The notes beneath the pieces were generated by a model, which had not been told where the DNA came from, searched no databases, and saw only the letters and a list, made by a program, of their open reading frames with translations. DNA of 64,000 bases from Eubacteriales bacterium (GTDB lineage: Bacteria; Bacillota; Clostridia; Oscillospirales; CAG-272), in NCBI GenBank assembly GCA_045661325.1, contig JAZRFK010000060.1, positions 258 through 64,257 of the forward strand, given 5' to 3'. Below are positions 6,868 through 48,228 of this stretch, piece after piece (positions within the stretch are counted from its first letter, which is position 1; every line of letters starts with the position of its first letter). Made by a program: the position numbers and the translations under genes.

Positions 6868-7857
6868 TCAGCAGTAGTATTTCTTGATAGCGGCGGCAAG
6901 ATCGGCAAGATTTTCCTTATACGTTTCAAGATATTGCATCTTCATCATCTTCCAAGGCGCCGTCATAAAGCCGATAAGCTTCTCTTCTGCCATGCCCTCC
7001 TTGAAATATCTGACCACGTCGTCTGCGTTATTCCAGGACTCAAAATAACGAGAGGCACAGGGGATATACGCGTATCCGACATCAGCGGCGGCAGGAAGGA
7101 TTTTTTCACGGAATTCAACATATACGGGATGATCCTCCGCATAGGTCATACCGAGCCTCTTGAAGTCCTCATAGGTGTCGATGAAATGCTCTGCCAGCTC
7201 TTCGATGGGCTTGTAATGCTCAGGATAAAGACCGTAATAATACCAAGGAGAAAGAAGCGCGTCCGTTCCGATTTCTGCCTTATACTTCTCCGTATCCAAA
7301 AGGAGCGGATCCATCCAAAGCCAAGGCGTTGCGCCCGTTTCCTTGACGGTATCCACCAAGAAACGCAAATCCTTGAAGAGAAGGTTCTTGCGGCGGTAAA
7401 GAACGAGGGCGTCATCTCCGTAATAATGCTCGTCTCCCTCCTCGTCCATACCGAGATGAATGTATTCGGGATGCTCGAACATCTCGTATACCTCTTTTAT
7501 CAGGTCGCGGCATACCTCGTAATATTCGGGAGTGGAAAGCATCCGCTCATAACGGCCGAGCCAGATATCGTGTCCTGCGGAAAAGTTGATTTTGGGAATG
7601 ACGGTGATGCCCATATCGCGACATCTTGCCAGCTCCTTTTTCACGCGCTCTGCCGACCAGGCGTTTTTGATGGAAATTTCAGGATGACTTTTGTATACAA
7701 CGGCGTCACCAACGTCTAAAAGAAGGGTGTCAACGCCATACTCCTTCAAAAGAGGGAGTATCGCCTCCCAAGCCTCTTCCTCAAAGCTTTCGTAAATATC
7801 GGCGTCCTTTTTCTTCCACATACCGTGGCTTAAATGGATAAGTACAGCGGTTTTCAT
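6868..7857 (-). CDS. GH20-like (hexosaminidase-type TIM barrel) hypothetical glycosidase, paralogue 2
   Basis: 329-aa ORF. GITVIPKINFSAGH and YIHLGMDEE mirror the GH20 motifs GI.VIPEID.PGH and H.GGDE. It is a tandem paralogue of 7939..8946. Confidence 0.65.
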   Translation of the reverse strand: MKTAVLIHLSHGMWKKKDADIYESFEEEAWEAILPLLKEYGVDTLLLDVGDAVVYKSHPEISIKNAWSAERVKKELARCRDMGITVIPKINFSAGHDIWLGRYERMLSTPEYYEVCRDLIKEVYEMFEHPEYIHLGMDEEGDEHYYGDDALVLYRRKNLLFKDLRFLVDTVKETGATPWLWMDPLLLDTEKYKAEIGTDALLSPWYYYGLYPEHYKPIEELAEHFIDTYEDFKRLGMTYAEDHPVYVEFREKILPAAADVGYAYIPCASRYFESWNNADDVVRYFKEGMAEEKLIGFMTAPWKMMKMQYLETYKENLADLAAAIKKYYC

Positions 7858-28568: not shown

Positions 28569-29669
28569 ATGAAAAAAGGATTGTTCATCCTTGCAGCTCT
28601 GCTTTTGGTATGTCTTGCGCTTTGCTTTACGGCTTGCGGCCCAGCTGACAACGGGCAAGAAGAACATACCCACACCTTTAACCTGCAAAATACAAGGAAT
28701 ATGTATATAAAGCACGTAGCCACCTGCACGAGCGCGGCTGAATATTTTTATTCCTGCGAATGCGGTGAGGCAGGTATTGACACCTTCAAAAGCGGTGCGC
28801 CTATTCCCCATACCTATGACCGACAAAACACAGATGGAAAATATTTGAAGACTGTAGCGTCCTGCACAAGTGCGGCTGAATACTATTATTCCTGTGCGTG
28901 TGGCGAGGCAAGCACCGACACCTTCCAAAGCGGTGAGCCTTCCCACACCTTTGACCTGCAAAACGCGGAGGACAAGTATATAAAGACTGCCGCTTCCTGC
29001 ACGAGCGCGGCTGAATATTTTTATTCTTGCAAGTGTGGTCTGGCAGGTACGGACACCTTCAAAAGCGGTGAGCCTCTTCCGCATACCTATGACCAAAAAA
29101 ATACGGATGACAAGTATCTGAAAACAGCAGCTTCCTGTACAAGCGCGGCTAAGTATTATTATTCCTGTGCGTGCGGCGAGGCGGGTACCACTACCTTTAT
29201 ACTTTATGGCACATCGTTAGGCCACGATATTGAATGGTCGGCAGACGAAAATTATGTATACGGCAACTGTCGAAATCAAGGATGCACAGAAGCGTACCAA
29301 GAAGTATCTACTTTGACCTTTTCCGCCAACGGTGACGGCACCTACGCGCTGGTTGACTGTGGTGGTGGGTACTGGAACTCTGGCTTCCCCTATGTTATCA
29401 TTCCTTCTACCTTTAAGGGCTGCGCCGTTACAACTATTGAAAGCGGCGCGCTTGTCGGACTGTATACCATGACGATTCCTGAGTCTGTTACGCTGATAAA
29501 ATCGGGAGCCATAAGAGATCCCGATCCTGAGCTTCAGGAAATCTATTACGGGGGAACAATTGACGACTGGAACAACATCACAAAGGAAAGCGGTTGGATG
29601 CCTACTTCTCCTTTTGACCTAGCGCCCGACTTTACGATTTGGTGCAGTGACGGAAACATTACGCCTTAA
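28569..29669 (+). CDS. lipoprotein with four Cys-containing tandem repeats, a short BspA-type LRR region and the same C-terminal cap motif as the 56.5-63.7 kb cluster
   Basis: Signal peptide plus lipobox (LALCFTAC). It has four repeats of H-T-(F/Y)-D..N....Y(I/L)KT.A.CTSAAEY(F/Y)YSC.CGEAG.DTF.SG.P, then IPSTFKGCAVTTIESGAL...IPESVTLIKSGAI, and ends IYYGGTIDDWNNITKESGW...IWCSDGNITP. Confidence 0.75.
   Translation: MKKGLFILAALLLVCLALCFTACGPADNGQEEHTHTFNLQNTRNMYIKHVATCTSAAEYFYSCECGEAGIDTFKSGAPIPHTYDRQNTDGKYLKTVASCTSAAEYYYSCACGEASTDTFQSGEPSHTFDLQNAEDKYIKTAASCTSAAEYFYSCKCGLAGTDTFKSGEPLPHTYDQKNTDDKYLKTAASCTSAAKYYYSCACGEAGTTTFILYGTSLGHDIEWSADENYVYGNCRNQGCTEAYQEVSTLTFSANGDGTYALVDCGGGYWNSGFPYVIIPSTFKGCAVTTIESGALVGLYTMTIPESVTLIKSGAIRDPDPELQEIYYGGTIDDWNNITKESGWMPTSPFDLAPDFTIWCSDGNITP
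28671..29222 (+). repeat. four in-frame tandem repeats of about 135-141 bp (45-47 aa Cys-x10-Cys-x-Cys module)
   Basis: Repeat units start at 28671, 28809, 28944 and 29082 (each at an HT(F/Y) codon pair). They are clearly related at both protein and DNA level. Confidence 0.85.
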
Positions 29670-29723
29670 AGGCATATAGTATTGCACCGATGGGAATTTG
29701 ACGAAATAAAGAAGAAATATGGT

Positions 29724-29754
29724 AGAAGCCGACGCGGTGCGTCGGCTTCTTTTT
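29724..29754 (+). terminator. rho-independent terminator of the lipoprotein gene (hairpin 1 of the array region)
   Basis: 12-bp stem AGAAGCCGACGC / GCGTCGGCTTCT with loop GGT, followed by TTTT. Confidence 0.8.
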
Positions 29755-29943
29755 GTGAAGTTTCCGAGAACGGGCGGCGCGCGTTCTCGGAAGTGAAGTT
29801 CATGCAAAACTACGGTGTAGGTTTGCATGAGTGAAGTTTGGAAGAAAGGGCTTTGCGCTTTCTTCCAAGTGAAGTTAAAACCGCCCAAGGCGAGTGGCAT
29901 CGCTTTGGGCGGTTTTAGTTGCGTTTGCCCTTTGGGCAAACGC
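29755..29943. repeat. periodic array: GTGAAGTT octamer x4 at an exact 38-bp period, separated by unrelated 30-nt palindromes, then two further hairpins
   Basis: GTGAAGTT occurs at 29755, 29793, 29831 and 29869. The variable 30-mers 29763-29792, 29801-29830 and 29839-29868 each fold into 9-11 bp stems with no similarity to each other. A 40-nt hairpin follows at 29877-29916, then AGTT, then a 23-nt hairpin at 29921-29943. Confidence 0.85.
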
Positions 29944-29944
29944 A

Positions 29945-31273
29945 TCAAATATCGAGGCGCAGGAGGTCCGAGAGGGATTCTCTTTTGACGACTAAACGCG
30001 TGTCCTTTTCCGTGAGGAAAACGACGGGGGGGCGAGGGATGCGGTTATAGTTCATTGCCATGGAGTAGTTATAGGCGCCTGTGGTTAAGCAGGCGAGGAT
30101 ATTGCCACGGCTAATGGTGTCAGGCAGGGGGACGTTCTCTTGGAGAATATCGCCGCTTTCACAGCATCTGCCGACCACCGAGGCGGTCATATCTCTTGCG
30201 GCGTTCATATTGTCGGCGGGCAGGAGGGTGTAGGCGGAGCGATAGAGAGCGTAACGGGGGTTATCGGTCATACCGCCGTCCACAGACACGTAATTCTTAT
30301 AGCCCGTGATTCTCTTGACGGTGCCGACGGTATAGAGGGTCATACCCGCGTCTGCTACCATACTGCGACCGGGCTCCAAGAGGATTTTCGGCAGGCTAAT
30401 GCCGAGGGCCTTGGCAGTTTCCTTGGCACGCTTCCCTACCGCCTTGATATTCTCGGCGATGGAAAGGGCGGGATCGCTTTCGGTATAACGGACACCGTAG
30501 CCGCCGCCAAGGTCAAGCTCCTCAATTTTATACGCGCATACCCTTTGGATATGGGCAACGAAGGAAAGCATAATGTCCACCGTCTGCAAAAAGACGTCCG
30601 GCTCGAAGACCTGAGAGCCTACGTGGCAATGGAAGCCGGCCAAATGAATATGAGAGAAGGCAGAGGAGAGCGCAAGACGCACCATTTCCTCAGCTTGTCC
30701 CGTTTCGATGGCGGATCCGAATTTGGAATCCACCTTGCCCGTGGCAACGGCGGCATAGGTATGGGGGTCAATACCGGGGGTGATGCGAAGCAGAACCTTT
30801 TGCGTAACGCTTTGCTCTGCCGCTTCCCTTTCGATAGCGTACAGCTCCTCGGCGTTATCCACCACGAAGGCGCCGATGCCGTTTTCTATGGCGAAGCGGA
30901 TATCCTCATCCGTTTTGTTATTGGAATGGAAATAGGCGCGCTCCAAGGGGAAGCCTGCGGCAAGGGCGGTGGCTATCTCACCGGAGGACACCACGTCAAT
31001 GCCCATGTTTTCTTCCTTCATAATTTCCAAGAGCGCCTTAAAGCAGGCGGCCTTGGATGCGTAAAGAACGCGGGCGTTCTCTCCGAAGGCTGCTTTTACC
31101 GCATTTTGATAGAGTGCGGCACGGGCGCGGATAAGCCCCTCGTCATAGAGGTAAAGAGGGGTGCCGTACTGCTTTGCTAAATCCACGGTATCCCAGCCTG
31201 CCAAGCACAGATGGCCCTTTTCATTGACAGAGAGATTGTCACAAATCAGCTCTTTCTTGCGTAATTCTACCAT
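29945..31273 (-). CDS. lysA: diaminopimelate decarboxylase
   Basis: 442 aa with a PLP fold-III decarboxylase layout (YGTPLYLYDE, GGG.GV.Y, CESGD). Confidence 0.9.
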   Translation of the reverse strand: MVELRKKELICDNLSVNEKGHLCLAGWDTVDLAKQYGTPLYLYDEGLIRARAALYQNAVKAAFGENARVLYASKAACFKALLEIMKEENMGIDVVSSGEIATALAAGFPLERAYFHSNNKTDEDIRFAIENGIGAFVVDNAEELYAIEREAAEQSVTQKVLLRITPGIDPHTYAAVATGKVDSKFGSAIETGQAEEMVRLALSSAFSHIHLAGFHCHVGSQVFEPDVFLQTVDIMLSFVAHIQRVCAYKIEELDLGGGYGVRYTESDPALSIAENIKAVGKRAKETAKALGISLPKILLEPGRSMVADAGMTLYTVGTVKRITGYKNYVSVDGGMTDNPRYALYRSAYTLLPADNMNAARDMTASVVGRCCESGDILQENVPLPDTISRGNILACLTTGAYNYSMAMNYNRIPRPPVVFLTEKDTRLVVKRESLSDLLRLDI

Positions 31274-34008: not shown

Positions 34009-34216
34009 AAAAAAGACAGCCATATGGCTATCCCACAATACTCCCAAGAATATCAAGGATAGCTCTCCGCATTTCTGCGACAACAGTGCAAATCTTATTT
34101 GAACTGCCAGCAAGACGCTTGCCACAACGCTCACTTCGGCACCCGACCCCTTTCCCACGCGGCTTTGGCAGCCGTTCTTTCGCGGTACTCTTTGTAAGGT
34201 GCGCCTCTATCTCCAC
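34009..34216 (-). promoter_or_regulatory. lysine riboswitch (L-box) with terminator, leader of dapA-dapB-ddh-lysA
   Basis: The minus strand reads GGAGATAGAGGCGC...GAGTA...GGGAAAGGGGTCGGGTGCCGAAG...GCTGGCAG...CACTGTTGTCGCAG...GGAGAGCTATCC. The hairpin GATAGCCATATGGCTGTC plus TTTTTT follows. The conserved L-box blocks (AGAGGnGC, GAGTA, GAAAGGGG, GCCGAAG) are in the right order. Confidence 0.8.
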
Positions 34217-34239
34217 TGTTTTACCAGTTTGATGGACTT

Positions 34240-47951: not shown

Positions 47952-48228
47952 GATCATACACCCCAAATTCGACACAGACCTACACGCGTTAACCGCACAC
48001 TCTGCTCCGAACAGGCGCCCCTGTGGCACATGGAAAGCTCCGCTTAATGCTGCTTAGTTCCCTACCTGACATGGTTCACGGTTCCCCATTGCACAAGACC
48101 CATTCTTCAACACAGAGGAATGCGGCGCAGACCGCACAAGCATGCGCCTCCTGAGGAGAATTCGGCCCCGCTACAGCGGATTTCGGGTACAAGGCTCCGC
48201 TACTGCCCCGCTTAGTATGACCTTTTCC
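47952..48228 (-). ncRNA. ffs: signal recognition particle RNA, large (Bacillus-type, with Alu domain)
   Basis: The minus strand reads ...CTAAGCGGGGCAGTAGCGGAGCCTTGTACC...CCATGTCAGGTAGGGAACTAAGCAGCATTAAGCGGAG... This is collinear with B. subtilis scRNA as remembered (GTCAGGTCCGGAAGGAAGCAGC domain IV). The 5' GGTCATAC pairs with the 3' GTATGATC. It lies immediately upstream of dnaX, as usual in Firmicutes. The ends are approximate. Confidence 0.8.

What the first reader, a model, noticed from the sequence alone, without database searches (positions are those of the whole stretch)
29724..29943. Strictly 38-bp-periodic array of the octamer GTGAAGTT separating unrelated 30-nt palindromes in a convergent intergenic region
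Between the stop of the LRR lipoprotein gene (29669, + strand) and the stop of lysA (29945, - strand) lie six consecutive hairpins.

Layout:
- Hairpin 1 is a canonical terminator (29724-29754).
- GTGAAGTT then occurs at 29755, 29793, 29831 and 29869, an exact 38-bp period. Three of the four copies extend to AGTGAAGTT.
- Each interval holds a 30-nt segment that is itself an inverted repeat: TCCGAGAACG...CGTTCTCGGA, CATGCAAA...TTTGCATG and TGGAAGAAAG...CTTTCTTCCA.
- The three palindromes share no sequence with one another.
- After the fourth octamer comes a longer 40-nt hairpin (29877-29916), a truncated AGTT, and a final 23-nt hairpin.

Why it is unusual:
- An 8-mer is expected about once per 65 kb per strand, so four copies in exact register cannot be chance.
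- A 38-bp period is not a multiple of three, so this is not a protein repeat.
- Hairpins 2-4 lack U-tracts on either strand, so they are not ordinary terminators.
- The architecture (constant short repeat, constant-length variable inserts, degenerate last repeat) is CRISPR-like in logic. It is far too small to be a CRISPR array, and the spacers are palindromes.

Possible explanations:
- a structured RNA presenting a repeated single-stranded (A)GUGAAGUU motif between helices, acting as a protein sponge
- ssDNA hairpins used by an HUH/Y1-type or integrase-type enzyme, with repeat duplication at each insertion
- a stack of transcription or RNA-decay barriers protecting convergent genes

I know of no described element with this organisation.
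Basis: seen in the sequence. Interest (0 to 1): 0.78.

Follow-up and report, generated by a model that had tools for sequence, protein, structure and literature searches.

The report
Gut-1-like hairpin-array repeat element
Just after the lysine-synthesis gene lysA lies a row of stable hairpins joined by an identical 8-letter linker; it is a locally remodelled copy of a barely studied repeat family (known only as the "Gut-1 RNA motif") that is scattered through gut Clostridia and some of their phages, and its function is still unknown.

Summary
GTGAAGTT occurs four times in the window, all at an exact 38-bp period, separating three 29-nt hairpins and flanked by three more hairpins.

It is not an orphan. 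The same linker punctuates hairpin arrays in at least 118 loci of gut Clostridia genomes assembled from metagenomes (MAGs). The usual form is a 230-300 nt element: three GTGAAGTT-linked hairpins, then four AACTTCAC-linked hairpins, then a terminator-like hairpin. Rfam's Gut-1 model (RF01706) hits the first half of such elements but not the window.

The family sits at unrelated loci, has several copies per genome, and also occurs in a real phage. Sister families use related linkers with an RTGAW core.

The window holds a single four-linker arm with enlarged hairpins, between the lysA stop codon and lysA's ancestral terminator. Among close relatives, one lacks exactly one 38-bp unit, one carries an ATGAATT-linked array at the same site, and others have no array. 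Hairpins evolve by compensatory or wobble changes, and units 1 and 3 are diverged duplicates.

Best reading: a REP/BIME-like dispersed hairpin-array element, here probably a cis barrier between convergent genes. Function and mobilising agent remain unknown. The CRISPR-like and protein-sponge readings are poorly supported.

The parts
28569..29669 (+). Upstream convergent gene. It encodes a lipoprotein with four 46-aa Cys-rich repeats and a BspA/LRR_5-like C-terminus.
   Evidence: Translation shows a signal peptide and lipobox. There is no Pfam hit for the protein itself. Homologues carry PF13306 LRR_5.
29724..29750 (.). Hairpin 1 (12-bp stem), followed by T5 on the + strand. It acts as the terminator for the lipoprotein gene, and by homology it is lysA's ancestral terminator.
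   Evidence: It is terminator-like on the + strand. An identical stem, AGAAGCCGACGC/GCGTCGGCTTC, follows the lysA stop in the array-less relatives L218, L219 and L220.
29755..29876 (.). The array proper: four GTGAAGTT linkers (29755, 29793, 29831, 29869) and three hairpin units, U1 29762-29792, U2 29800-29830 and U3 29838-29868. It corresponds to the four-linker arm of the family element.
   Evidence: Supported. U1 and U3 are diverged duplicates. Relative L061 lacks exactly U1 plus one linker, 38 nt in all. Between the window and L061, U2 and U3 differ only by compensatory, wobble, loop or mismatch-site changes.
29877..29916 (.). A 40-nt hairpin (AAAACCGCCC...GGGCGGTTTT), terminator-like in both directions. 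It is found only in this lineage.
   Evidence: Terminator-like on both strands. Conserved in L061. Absent from canonical elements.
29917..29943 (.). Half-linker AGTT plus the hairpin GCGTTTGCCC ttt GGGCAAACGC. This matches the family's 'AAGTT + h1 (TTGCCC..GGGCAA)' module and starts 1 nt after the lysA stop codon.
   Evidence: Sequence read. The same module is seen in canonical elements. The same position in L061 and L223 also holds a TTTGCC../..GGCAAA hairpin right after the stop.
29945..31273 (-). lysA (diaminopimelate decarboxylase), the last gene of a dap/lys operon that lies behind a lysine riboswitch.
   Evidence: Pfam hits PF02784 and PF00278. The riboswitch is at 34052-34217 on the - strand.

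Best explanation
**What it is**
The array is a resident, remodelled copy of a dispersed intergenic repeat family of gut Clostridia and some of their phages. The family is built from small GC-rich hairpins joined by an identical 7-8-nt A/T-rich linker with an RTGAW core. Its only described piece is Rfam's Gut-1 RNA motif.

The common element runs: optional 5' hairpin, then AACTAAGTT, then hairpin h1, then three GTGAAGTT-linked hairpins, then GGGCAAACTT, then four AACTTCAC-linked hairpins, then a terminator-like hairpin.

The window keeps only a four-linker arm, with its three hairpins enlarged to 29 nt, plus the AAGTT+h1 module and an extra 40-nt hairpin. All of this is wedged between the lysA stop codon and lysA's original terminator.

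**Shown here**
- Relationship to the family by linker, arm layout and the h1 module.
- Dispersal of the family to unrelated loci.
- Presence/absence and unit-number differences between close relatives.
- Structure-preserving evolution of the hairpins.

**Inferred**
- Units are gained, lost and shuffled by slippage or recombination between the identical linkers.
- The hairpins are maintained because the element must fold as a single strand.
- At this locus the fold most likely acts in cis as a stack of very stable hairpins between two terminators. It would stop read-through and 3'-exonucleolytic decay between the convergent genes, as REP/BIME elements do.
- The family probably spreads by an unidentified process that depends on hairpins.
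For: **The family exists**
Nearly all are Clostridia MAGs.
- The dominant patterns are +++---- (33), +++--- (20) and ++++--- (16).
- RF01706 Gut-1 scores 57.4 and 52.9 bits on L051 and L055.
- The Gut-1 seed alignment shows the same two-arm layout with other octamers.

**The family is dispersed**
- Thirty loci share the same 3' terminator-like hairpin but have unrelated flanking genes.
- Two copies in one contig share about 235 nt while their flanks are unrelated.
- No neighbouring protein family is enriched.
- A phage contig with terminase and portal genes carries at least five arrays.

**Location**
- Of the 65 clusters with a gene called on both sides, 35 lie between convergent genes, 27 between tandem genes and only 3 between divergent genes.
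- The left end abuts or even supplies a stop codon.

**This locus**
- L218, L219 and L220 have lysA 88% identical at protein level, no array, and a terminator stem identical to hairpin 1.
- L061 lacks exactly one 38-nt unit.
- L223 has an ATGAATT-linked array after the same post-stop hairpin.

**Selection on the fold**
- The array is 88% identical between the window and L061, against 66% at lysA third codon positions.
- None of 9 substitutions in the two shared hairpins breaks a pair (P about 0.0005 under random substitution).
- U1 and U3 differ by four compensatory pairs.
- In 36 canonical elements the hairpin pairs show 10-18 double-sided changes.
Against: - No transcription data are available. 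In the window the array lies between two terminator-like hairpins, so it would be transcribed only by read-through. That weakens an RNA-level role.
- The strand that folds is unresolved.
  - Family-wide, C(GNA)G triloops number 41 versus 3.
  - Family-wide, wobble pairs number 29 versus 9 and 27 versus 16.
  - Both measures favour the AACTTCAC strand.
  - The three wobble changes between the window and L061 favour the GTGAAGTT strand instead.
- Wobble pairs are rare overall, at 2-4%. This fits DNA hairpins, or a constraint on both strands, at least as well as it fits an RNA.
- The Rfam Gut-1 model does not hit the window at E<=10.
- The linkers are far more conserved than a passive spacer needs to be, and they share an RTGAW core across sister families. 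This points to recognition by some factor that the barrier model does not explain.
Confidence: 0.45

Rival explanations
1. It is a selfish mobile DNA element. The hairpins fold in single-stranded DNA, and each 7-8-nt RTGAW linker next to a hairpin foot is the site read and cut or joined by an enzyme encoded elsewhere, of the HUH/Y1 type like RAYT or IS200/IS605 TnpA, or of another type. Arrays grow, shrink and shuffle at the linkers. Any effect on host transcription is incidental.
For: - The family is dispersed to unrelated loci with high sequence identity and has several copies per genome.
- It is present in a real phage.
- Close relatives differ in presence, absence or replacement of the array at the lysA site.
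- No promoter is conserved.
- The inverted two-arm layout resembles REPINs.
- Stems are near-perfect Watson-Crick with few wobbles.
- C(GNA)G triloops are strongly enriched on one strand, 41 versus 3. From my own knowledge, this is the loop type of extra-stable DNA mini-hairpins such as d(GCGAAGC).
- Tiny 3-4-bp hairpins such as TGCGTAGCA would be marginal as RNA.
- Related linker cores occur across sister families.
Against: - No transposase or HUH gene is enriched within about 8 kb of 118 loci.
- No target-site duplication is visible.
- The static orthologous copies in the window and L061 are more conserved than synonymous sites, with only structure-preserving changes. That implies selection in place rather than selection for mobility.
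- Units U1 and U3 arose by local duplication.
- The REP-defining GT[AG]G foot and conserved stems are absent (PMC6006769).
Confidence: 0.27
2. It is a trans-acting structured RNA that displays repeated single-stranded (A)GUGAAGUU between helices and titrates an RNA-binding protein or a complementary RNA.
For: - The linkers are invariant while the hairpins drift.
- Weinberg 2010 rated Gut-1 as certainly an RNA.
- The predicted fold leaves the linkers unpaired in single-arm arrays.
Against: - Arrays with other linkers (GCAATTA, GATAAGTG, CATATCA, TCGATAT, CATCAT, ATGAATT) lie in the same contigs, and one lies at the same lysA site in a relative.
- In the common element the forward linkers are complementary to the reverse ones, and the consensus fold pairs them.
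- There is no conserved promoter, and the elements abut stop codons.
- The window array sits between terminators.
- Loop and wobble asymmetry favour the opposite strand.
Confidence: 0.07
3. It is a CRISPR-like or integrase-like record. Unrelated hairpin units are inserted one at a time, and each insertion duplicates the linker.
For: - Linkers are uniform within an array but differ between arrays.
- Unit number differs between relatives.
- U2 is unrelated to U1 and U3.
- Linker-like GGTGAGGG lies at the empty site next to the lipoprotein terminator in L288.
Against: - U1 and U3 are duplicates with compensatory divergence.
- Hairpins are position-specifically conserved across dozens of species and loci.
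- The same linker is used at many unrelated loci, so it is not a locus-specific target duplication.
- There are no linked genes.
- The hairpin arms match nothing else in the window.
Confidence: 0.04
4. It is an array of double-stranded DNA binding sites, like iterons or a centromere, for a sequence-specific protein. The palindromic spacers would be incidental.
For: - There are three forward and four reverse copies of an 8-bp site at about 16-24-bp spacing.
- The site is invariant across species.
Against: - Spacing varies from 15 to 28 bp, and is 38 bp in the window, so there is no helical phasing.
- The spacers keep their base pairing through compensatory change.
- The loops show strand asymmetry.
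- The location is at gene 3' ends rather than at promoters or origins.
Confidence: 0.04

Closest known systems
Gut-1 RNA motif (Rfam RF01706; Weinberg et al. 2010, PMC2864571)
   Same: - It consists of three variable hairpins separated by a constant GUGAAAU-type linker.
- It comes from gut Clostridia-type sequences.
- The model hits elements that carry exactly the window's octamer.
- The seed alignment shows the same forward-plus-reverse arm layout.
   Different: - The window is not hit, even at E<=10.
- Its hairpins are 29 nt rather than 10-17 nt.
- It corresponds to the four-linker arm, which lies outside the Gut-1 model.
- The published description is one sentence ('only in human gut metagenomes'). 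It mentions no reverse arm, no dispersal, no phage copies and no function.
REP / BIME / REPIN elements of Proteobacteria
   Same: - They are extragenic hairpin repeats at gene 3' ends, often between convergent genes, in inverted pairs and clusters with linker motifs.
- They are multi-copy and undergo gain and loss.
- Their known roles are mRNA 3' protection, termination and effects on translation when close to a stop codon (background in PMC6006769; the translation effect is from my own knowledge of Liang, Rudd and Deutscher 2015).
   Different: - In REPs the stem sequence is conserved and a GT[AG]G tetranucleotide sits at the hairpin foot. Here the stems vary and the linker is conserved.
- No RAYT gene is seen nearby.
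- REP families are species-specific, whereas this linker is shared by 60 or more species-level MAGs.
Neisseria intergenic mosaic elements (NIMEs: dRS3 repeats flanking variable RS units); comparison from my own knowledge
   Same: A constant short repeat punctuates variable intergenic modules, giving mosaic arrays that differ between strains.
   Different: - The dRS3 repeat is 20 bp and is itself an inverted repeat.
- The variable units are 50-150 bp and are not hairpins.
- The taxon is different.
- Not tested here.
Pneumococcal BOX elements (boxA-boxB(n)-boxC); comparison from my own knowledge
   Same: It is a modular intergenic repeat with a variable number of a middle unit, and it folds into stable structures.
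   Different: The boxB copies are alike in sequence, and there is no constant short linker between unrelated hairpins.

Membership tests
Gut-1 RNA motif (RF01706) | Score at or above the Rfam gathering threshold (50 bits) with the covariance model | tested here: not met
   The window region 29600-30050 gives no Gut-1 hit at E<=10. Same-octamer elements L051 and L055 score 57.4 and 52.9 bits. The forward-arm-only element in L082 scores 35.5 bits.
Gut-1 RNA motif (RF01706) | Three short hairpins (about 12-17 nt) joined by a GUGAAAU-like linker and preceded by a half-linker plus first hairpin | tested here: inconclusive
   The window has the linker (GUGAAGUU), three hairpins and the AGTT+TTTGCCC/GGGCAAA module. 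However, its hairpins are 29 nt, and the module lies on the side expected for the four-linker (non-Gut-1) arm.
Wider GTGAAGTT hairpin-array family (defined here) | Identical 8-nt linkers, each closed by a T...A pair onto a GC-rich hairpin, with three or four linkers per arm and an adjacent AAGTT+TTGCCC..GGGCAA module, at a gene 3' end in Clostridia | tested here: met
   Supported. Single-arm arrays occur elsewhere, for example in L040, L042, L054, L089, L121 and L143.
REP/BIME (REPIN) | The same palindrome sequence repeated across the genome | tested here: not met
   Stems differ within and between arrays, and only the linker is constant.
REP/BIME (REPIN) | A GT[AG]G guide tetranucleotide at the 5' foot of the hairpin (PMC6006769) | tested here: not met
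   The foot sequence is AGTT on one strand and CACT on the other. GTGA lies 4 nt from the foot.
REP/BIME (REPIN) | A cognate RAYT (tnpA-REP) gene flanked by the repeats | not testable with these tools
   No enriched neighbour family was found in about 8 kb around 118 loci. Whole genomes could not be scanned.
REP/BIME (REPIN) | Extragenic, multi-copy, in inverted pairs, biased towards gene 3' ends | tested here: met
   Supported.
CRISPR array | Repeats of 23-50 nt, non-palindromic spacers of foreign origin, and a leader with cas genes | tested here: not met
   The repeat is 8-9 nt and the spacers are hairpins. Two of the spacers are duplicates of each other. The flanking genes are lysA and a lipoprotein gene. 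No CRISPR family reached the Rfam gathering threshold.
Intrinsic (Rho-independent) terminator | A GC-rich hairpin followed directly by a T/U tract | tested here: not met
   The feature is met for hairpin 1 on the + strand and for the 40-nt hairpin on both strands. It is not met for the three array hairpins or for the last hairpin.
Integron attC cassette array | Complementary R''/R' core sites (RYYYAAC...GTTRRRY) bracketing each imperfect palindrome, with an integrase nearby | tested here: not met
   The bases either side of each hairpin are direct copies of the same linker and are not complementary core sites. There is no integrase among the neighbours.
Type III toxin-antitoxin RNA repeats (ToxI-like) | Near-identical tandem repeats directly upstream of a toxN-type gene | tested here: not met
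   The units differ in sequence, and the neighbours are lysA and a lipoprotein gene.

The most novel reading that the evidence does not exclude
The arrays could be the footprint of an unrecognised modular system based on single-stranded hairpins, in Clostridia and their phages.

- Each RTGAW linker next to a hairpin foot would be a nick-and-join site for an enzyme encoded elsewhere.
- Hairpin modules would then be copied, swapped and stacked at the linkers.
- This would create mosaic elements whose two arms can zip into a ladder of four-way junctions.
- It would be a new class of mobile or recombining DNA, distinct from REP/RAYT, integrons and CRISPR.
Probability: 0.15. Interest if true: 0.85.

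Novelty: new variant of a known kind. Interest (0 to 1): 0.62.

Why it matters
Gut-1 has sat in Rfam since 2010 with a one-line description and no known host. This window links it to several new facts:
- named Clostridia MAGs and a real phage;
- a larger two-arm element that is dispersed at unrelated loci;
- sister families with related linkers;
- a locus where close relatives differ by whole units or whole arrays.

Together these make the family experimentally approachable. One can ask which strand folds, what reads the linker, and whether the element protects or insulates 3' ends. They also supply an apparent Firmicute counterpart of REP/BIME elements with the opposite logic: a conserved linker and free stems.

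If the linkers turn out to be enzyme sites, this would be a new kind of modular mobile DNA. If not, it is a widespread 3'-end structural module that annotation pipelines currently miss.

Tried and rejected
1. **Viral scan for GTGAAGTT-N30-GTGAAGTT.** It gave 30 hits, which is the chance level, and none had a single 30-nt palindrome. A later three-octamer scan gave 66 hits, but only four viral contigs hold true hairpin arrays. The rest are coding or simple repeats.
2. **Exact look-up of the window's lysA protein.** It is not on record.
3. **Metagenome scan with lysA.** The best hit was 69% identical and no arrays were found. This was superseded by closer homologues found through the protein search.
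4. **Fuzzy-regex parsing of elements to look for compensating changes between forward and reverse octamers.** It mis-registered and was uninformative. Pairing between the arms therefore rests only on invariant complementarity and on the RNAalifold consensus.
5. **'Many loci share an ABC-transporter neighbour, so they are orthologous.'** This is wrong. The transporters are paralogous families at 27-35% identity.
6. **UUCG tetraloops as evidence for RNA.** On checking the register, the loops are c(UUC)g triloops, the complement of c(GAA)g.
7. **Orientation rule relative to flanking genes.** Convergent contexts are uninformative by symmetry. Tandem contexts give 8 versus 3 for two-arm elements and about 4 versus 4 for single arms, so there is no rule.
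8. **Source of the hairpin arms elsewhere in the window.** Only chance 10-mers were found.
9. **Literature searches for the octamer or for 'Gut-1 RNA'.** Nothing turned up beyond Weinberg 2010.
10. **Resemblance of GUGAAGU to the 16S rRNA decoding-site strand, and of TGATATT-type linkers to the phiX174/pC194 nick sites.** Both are recalled from memory. They are noted as leads only and were not tested.
Full report
**1. The observation**

The region 29724-29943 reads: hairpin 1 (AGAAGCCGACGC ggt GCGTCGGCTTCT) + TTTTT, then GTGAAGTT-U1-A-GTGAAGTT-U2-A-GTGAAGTT-U3-A-GTGAAGTT, then a 40-nt hairpin, then AGTT, then GCGTTTGCCC ttt GGGCAAACGC. The last hairpin ends 1 nt before the lysA stop codon on the - strand.

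- GTGAAGTT occurs four times in 64 kb on both strands taken together. All four copies are here, at an exact 38-bp spacing.
- A relaxed search with one mismatch finds no second hairpin array.
- All six hairpins are predicted on either strand, as RNA (z -11.6 and -14.5) and as DNA (z -15.1).
- Each unit is really T + 29 nt + A: 13 pairs, one internal mismatch and a 3-nt loop.
- A simple terminator scan accepts hairpin 1 on the + strand and the 40-nt hairpin on both strands. It does not accept the array hairpins.
- lysA, a DAP dehydrogenase gene and dapB form the - strand operon behind a lysine riboswitch.
- The + strand gene encodes a lipoprotein whose homologues carry LRR_5.

**2. The palindromes are not all unrelated**

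U1 and U3 share 18 of 29 bases and 9 of 13 arm positions (chance about 0.003). They share the same mismatch position and the same GC..GC pairs beside the loop. All four stem pairs that differ have changed on both sides and remain Watson-Crick. These two units are therefore diverged tandem duplicates. U2 is at background similarity to both.

**3. The motif exists elsewhere, in quantity**

Apart from a few chance hits (a Bacteroidota MAG among them), the loci come from Clostridia MAGs from ruminant, chicken and human guts. They include Oscillospiraceae, Acutalibacteraceae, Christensenellales, Ca. Scatosoma, Faecousia and Ruminococcus.

- In most loci, the 38-nt distance between first and third octamer of a three-octamer run spans two short hairpins and the middle octamer.
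- The dominant layout is three forward octamers followed by three or four reverse ones.
- The reverse order is essentially never seen.
- Spacers are 7-20 nt hairpins. Only the window and L061 have single 29-nt hairpins.

**4. The closest described thing is Gut-1**

Rfam RF01706 hits the forward arm of L051 (57.4 bits) and L055 (52.9 bits; gathering score 50). It hits the reverse arm weakly on the other strand. Its consensus is three hairpins joined by GUGAAAU.

The window itself gets no Gut-1 hit at E<=10.

The source paper says only that Gut-1 is found in human-gut metagenomes, and rates it as an RNA that is not cis-regulatory. Its seed alignment already contains the two-arm layout with other octamers: GUGAUAUU forward and AAUAUCAC reverse. 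No later literature was found.

**5. Anatomy of the common element**

Forty-nine elements have the exact +++---- pattern. They read: optional 5' hairpin, AACTAAGTT, h1 (TTGCCC..GGGCAA), (GTGAAGTT + hairpin) x3, GGGCAAACTT, (AACTTCAC + hairpin) x4.

- Hairpins are position-specific, but they vary by double-sided changes (10-18 sequences per pair in 36 aligned elements).
- The octamers are invariant.
- The RNAalifold consensus pairs forward with reverse octamers, giving a ladder of helices with side hairpins. Because those helices never vary, covariation cannot test them.

**6. It is a dispersed repeat, not a set of orthologues**

- Thirty loci carry the same terminator-like hairpin, AAAGAGA(TA/GG)ACATTTCGG.., right after the last octamer. 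Their flanking genes nevertheless fall in different clusters.
- Two copies 2.4 kb apart in L080 share about 235 nt with unrelated flanks, no target duplication and no shared promoter.
- Several MAGs contribute two or three loci each.
- No neighbouring protein family is enriched. An apparent shared ABC transporter proved to be paralogous.
- The left end abuts the stop codon of a co-oriented gene. In L133 the stop lies in the loop of the 5' hairpin. In L068, L097 and L101 the stop is the TAA of AACTAAGTT.
- Contexts are mostly convergent (35) or tandem (27), and rarely divergent (3).
- True arrays are rare in viral contigs. One carrier, L275, is a genuine phage with terminase and portal genes. 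It has at least five arrays with four or five linker types between its genes.

**7. Sister families**

The same or related contigs hold hairpin arrays with other linkers: TCGATAT/ATATCGA, CATATCA, CATCAT, GCAATTA, GATAAGTG and ATGAATT/AATTCAT. Some of these have forward and reverse arms. Most share an RTGAW core, which reads WTCAY on the other strand.

**8. Which strand folds?**

- Stems are almost purely Watson-Crick (1032 of 1160 positions), with few wobbles.
- Split by arm, wobbles favour the strand that reads AACTTCAC: 20 versus 6 in the reverse arm and 9 versus 3 in the forward arm.
- Loops are strongly asymmetric. On the AACTTCAC strand, 41 of the 85 triloops (148 clean hairpins in all) are G-N-A, mostly closed by C-G. 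On the GTGAAGTT strand only 3 are.
- From my own knowledge, C(GNA)G is the loop of unusually stable DNA mini-hairpins. Several conserved hairpins, such as TGCGTAGCA, have only 3-4 pairs.
- This leans towards DNA hairpins, or towards RNA read in the AACUUCAC sense. It sits awkwardly with the published Gut-1 strand.
- Orientation relative to neighbouring genes gives no rule.

**9. The lysA locus in close relatives**

| Locus | lysA protein identity to window | What follows the lysA stop |
|---|---|---|
| L061 | 89% (about 79-84% nt identity across the locus) | Same arrangement as the window, but lacking exactly U1 plus one linker (38 nt). |
| L218, L219, L220 | 88% | No array: 24 nt, then a terminator whose stem is identical to window hairpin 1. 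|
| L221, L222, L224 | 90% (L224: 76%) | No array; a different terminator. |
| L223 | 90% | The same kind of hairpin 1 nt after the stop (GGGTTTGCC..GGCAAACCC), then four ATGAATT linkers with 12-22-nt hairpins before the contig ends. |

Two further points follow from these comparisons.

- L061's first octamer, GTGAAGcT, looks like a junction with the native sequence next to the lipoprotein terminator. In L288, where that gene has no array after it, the same position reads ...TTTTTTGGTGAGGG.
- About 218 nt of the window (last hairpin, 40-nt hairpin and array) therefore sit between the lysA stop and its ancestral terminator.

So one site shows absence, two unit numbers and two linker families within about 10% protein divergence.

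**10. Selection in place**

Between the window and L061 the shared array segment is 88% identical. lysA as a whole is 84% identical, and lysA third codon positions are 66% identical.

The nine differences in U2 and U3 break down as one compensatory pair, three loop bases, two at mismatch sites and two giving G.T. None breaks a pair, which has P about 0.0005 under random substitution. The wobbles lie on the GTGAAGTT strand, the opposite of the family-wide trend, but there are only three of them.

**11. Interpretation**

Shown:
- The array is real.
- It belongs by linker, arm layout and h1 module to a large dispersed family related to Gut-1.
- The family turns over at this site.
- The hairpins are kept by structure-preserving evolution.

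Inferred:
- Identical linkers act as sites of slippage or recombination. This is supported by the 38-nt indel, the U1/U3 duplication, repeated hairpins in L089 and L143 and the hybrid junction in L061.
- At this locus I favour a cis role as a stack of stable hairpins between two terminators. It would limit read-through, antisense RNA and 3' decay between convergent genes, as REP/BIME elements do. The copy is conserved in place and lies exactly at two 3' ends.
- The main rival is a selfish element that depends on ssDNA hairpins, with the linker read by an unknown enzyme. The two readings are compatible, since a mobile origin can be followed by local use.
- A GUGAAGUU sponge, CRISPR-like acquisition and a duplex binding-site array are each contradicted by several results (see the rival explanations).

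**12. Limits**

- There are no expression data.
- Whole genomes could not be scanned, so copy number per genome and any co-occurring gene are unknown.
- The sample of loci is biased by the search pattern, which requires a 38-nt distance between octamers.
- The strand that folds, and whether the fold is in RNA or DNA, remain open.

Noticed in passing
L223:1525-1637: In a relative with 90% identical lysA, the same post-stop position carries a hairpin array with a different linker (ATGAATT x4, hairpins of 12-22 nt). The contig ends inside it.
   Followed up: partly
L275:1188-9750: A genuine phage contig (terminase large subunit, portal, barstar-like gene) has at least five intergenic hairpin arrays with different linkers: CATCAT, ATATCG, GTGAAGTT and ATGAAT/ATTCAT.
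   Followed up: partly
L123:2292-2400 and 7120-7300; L082:534-600; L002:5142-5320: These loci hold sister arrays with the linkers GATAAGTG, GCAATTA, CATATCA and TCGATAT/ATATCGA. In L123 a GCAATTA arm directly follows a GTGAAGTT arm, so the two arms are not always complementary. The L082 array follows a tRNA gene and its terminator.
   Followed up: partly
L069, L104, L138 (52-54-nt spacers); L074, L134, L120: Some family hairpins contain nested insertions. One is a conserved structured insert of about 50 nt (..GAACCCCCAAAA..TTTCGGGGAACC..). Others are small AAGTT-GCAAAGC-AACTT hairpins inside loops.
   Followed up: no
window:28669-29197: A 138-bp tandem repeat (3.5-3.9 copies) inside the lipoprotein gene encodes 46-aa Cys-rich repeats (..CTSAAEYFYSCxCGEAGxDTF..). 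Similar repeats occur in surface proteins next to arrays in other loci, for example L084.
   Followed up: partly
window:60015-60295: Tandem repeats of 69 bp (23 aa) typical of BspA-type leucine-rich repeat proteins.
   Followed up: no
window:34052-34217 (-) and 47954-48220 (-): There is a lysine riboswitch upstream of the dap/lys operon, and a large (Alu-domain) bacterial SRP RNA. The SRP RNA fits a Firmicutes/Clostridia origin.
   Followed up: no
window:56222-56275: Three TTTCAC/TTCAC-containing repeats at a spacing of about 20-35 nt lie in an intergenic region. The spacers are not hairpins, so this may be an operator or promoter feature.
   Followed up: no
window hairpin 1 versus L061 and L288: The window's hairpin 1 has the stem of the lysA terminator seen in L218. 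L061's hairpin at the same place has the stem of the lipoprotein-gene terminator seen in L288. The convergent junction has therefore been rebuilt differently in two sister lineages.
   Followed up: partly
Canonical elements, 5' hairpin loops and AACTAAGTT: The optional 5' hairpins come in several unrelated stem types, but their loops regularly contain TAA. The element also starts with AACTAAGTT, and most linkers contain TGA, so stop codons are offered in several frames at the element's left end.
   Followed up: no
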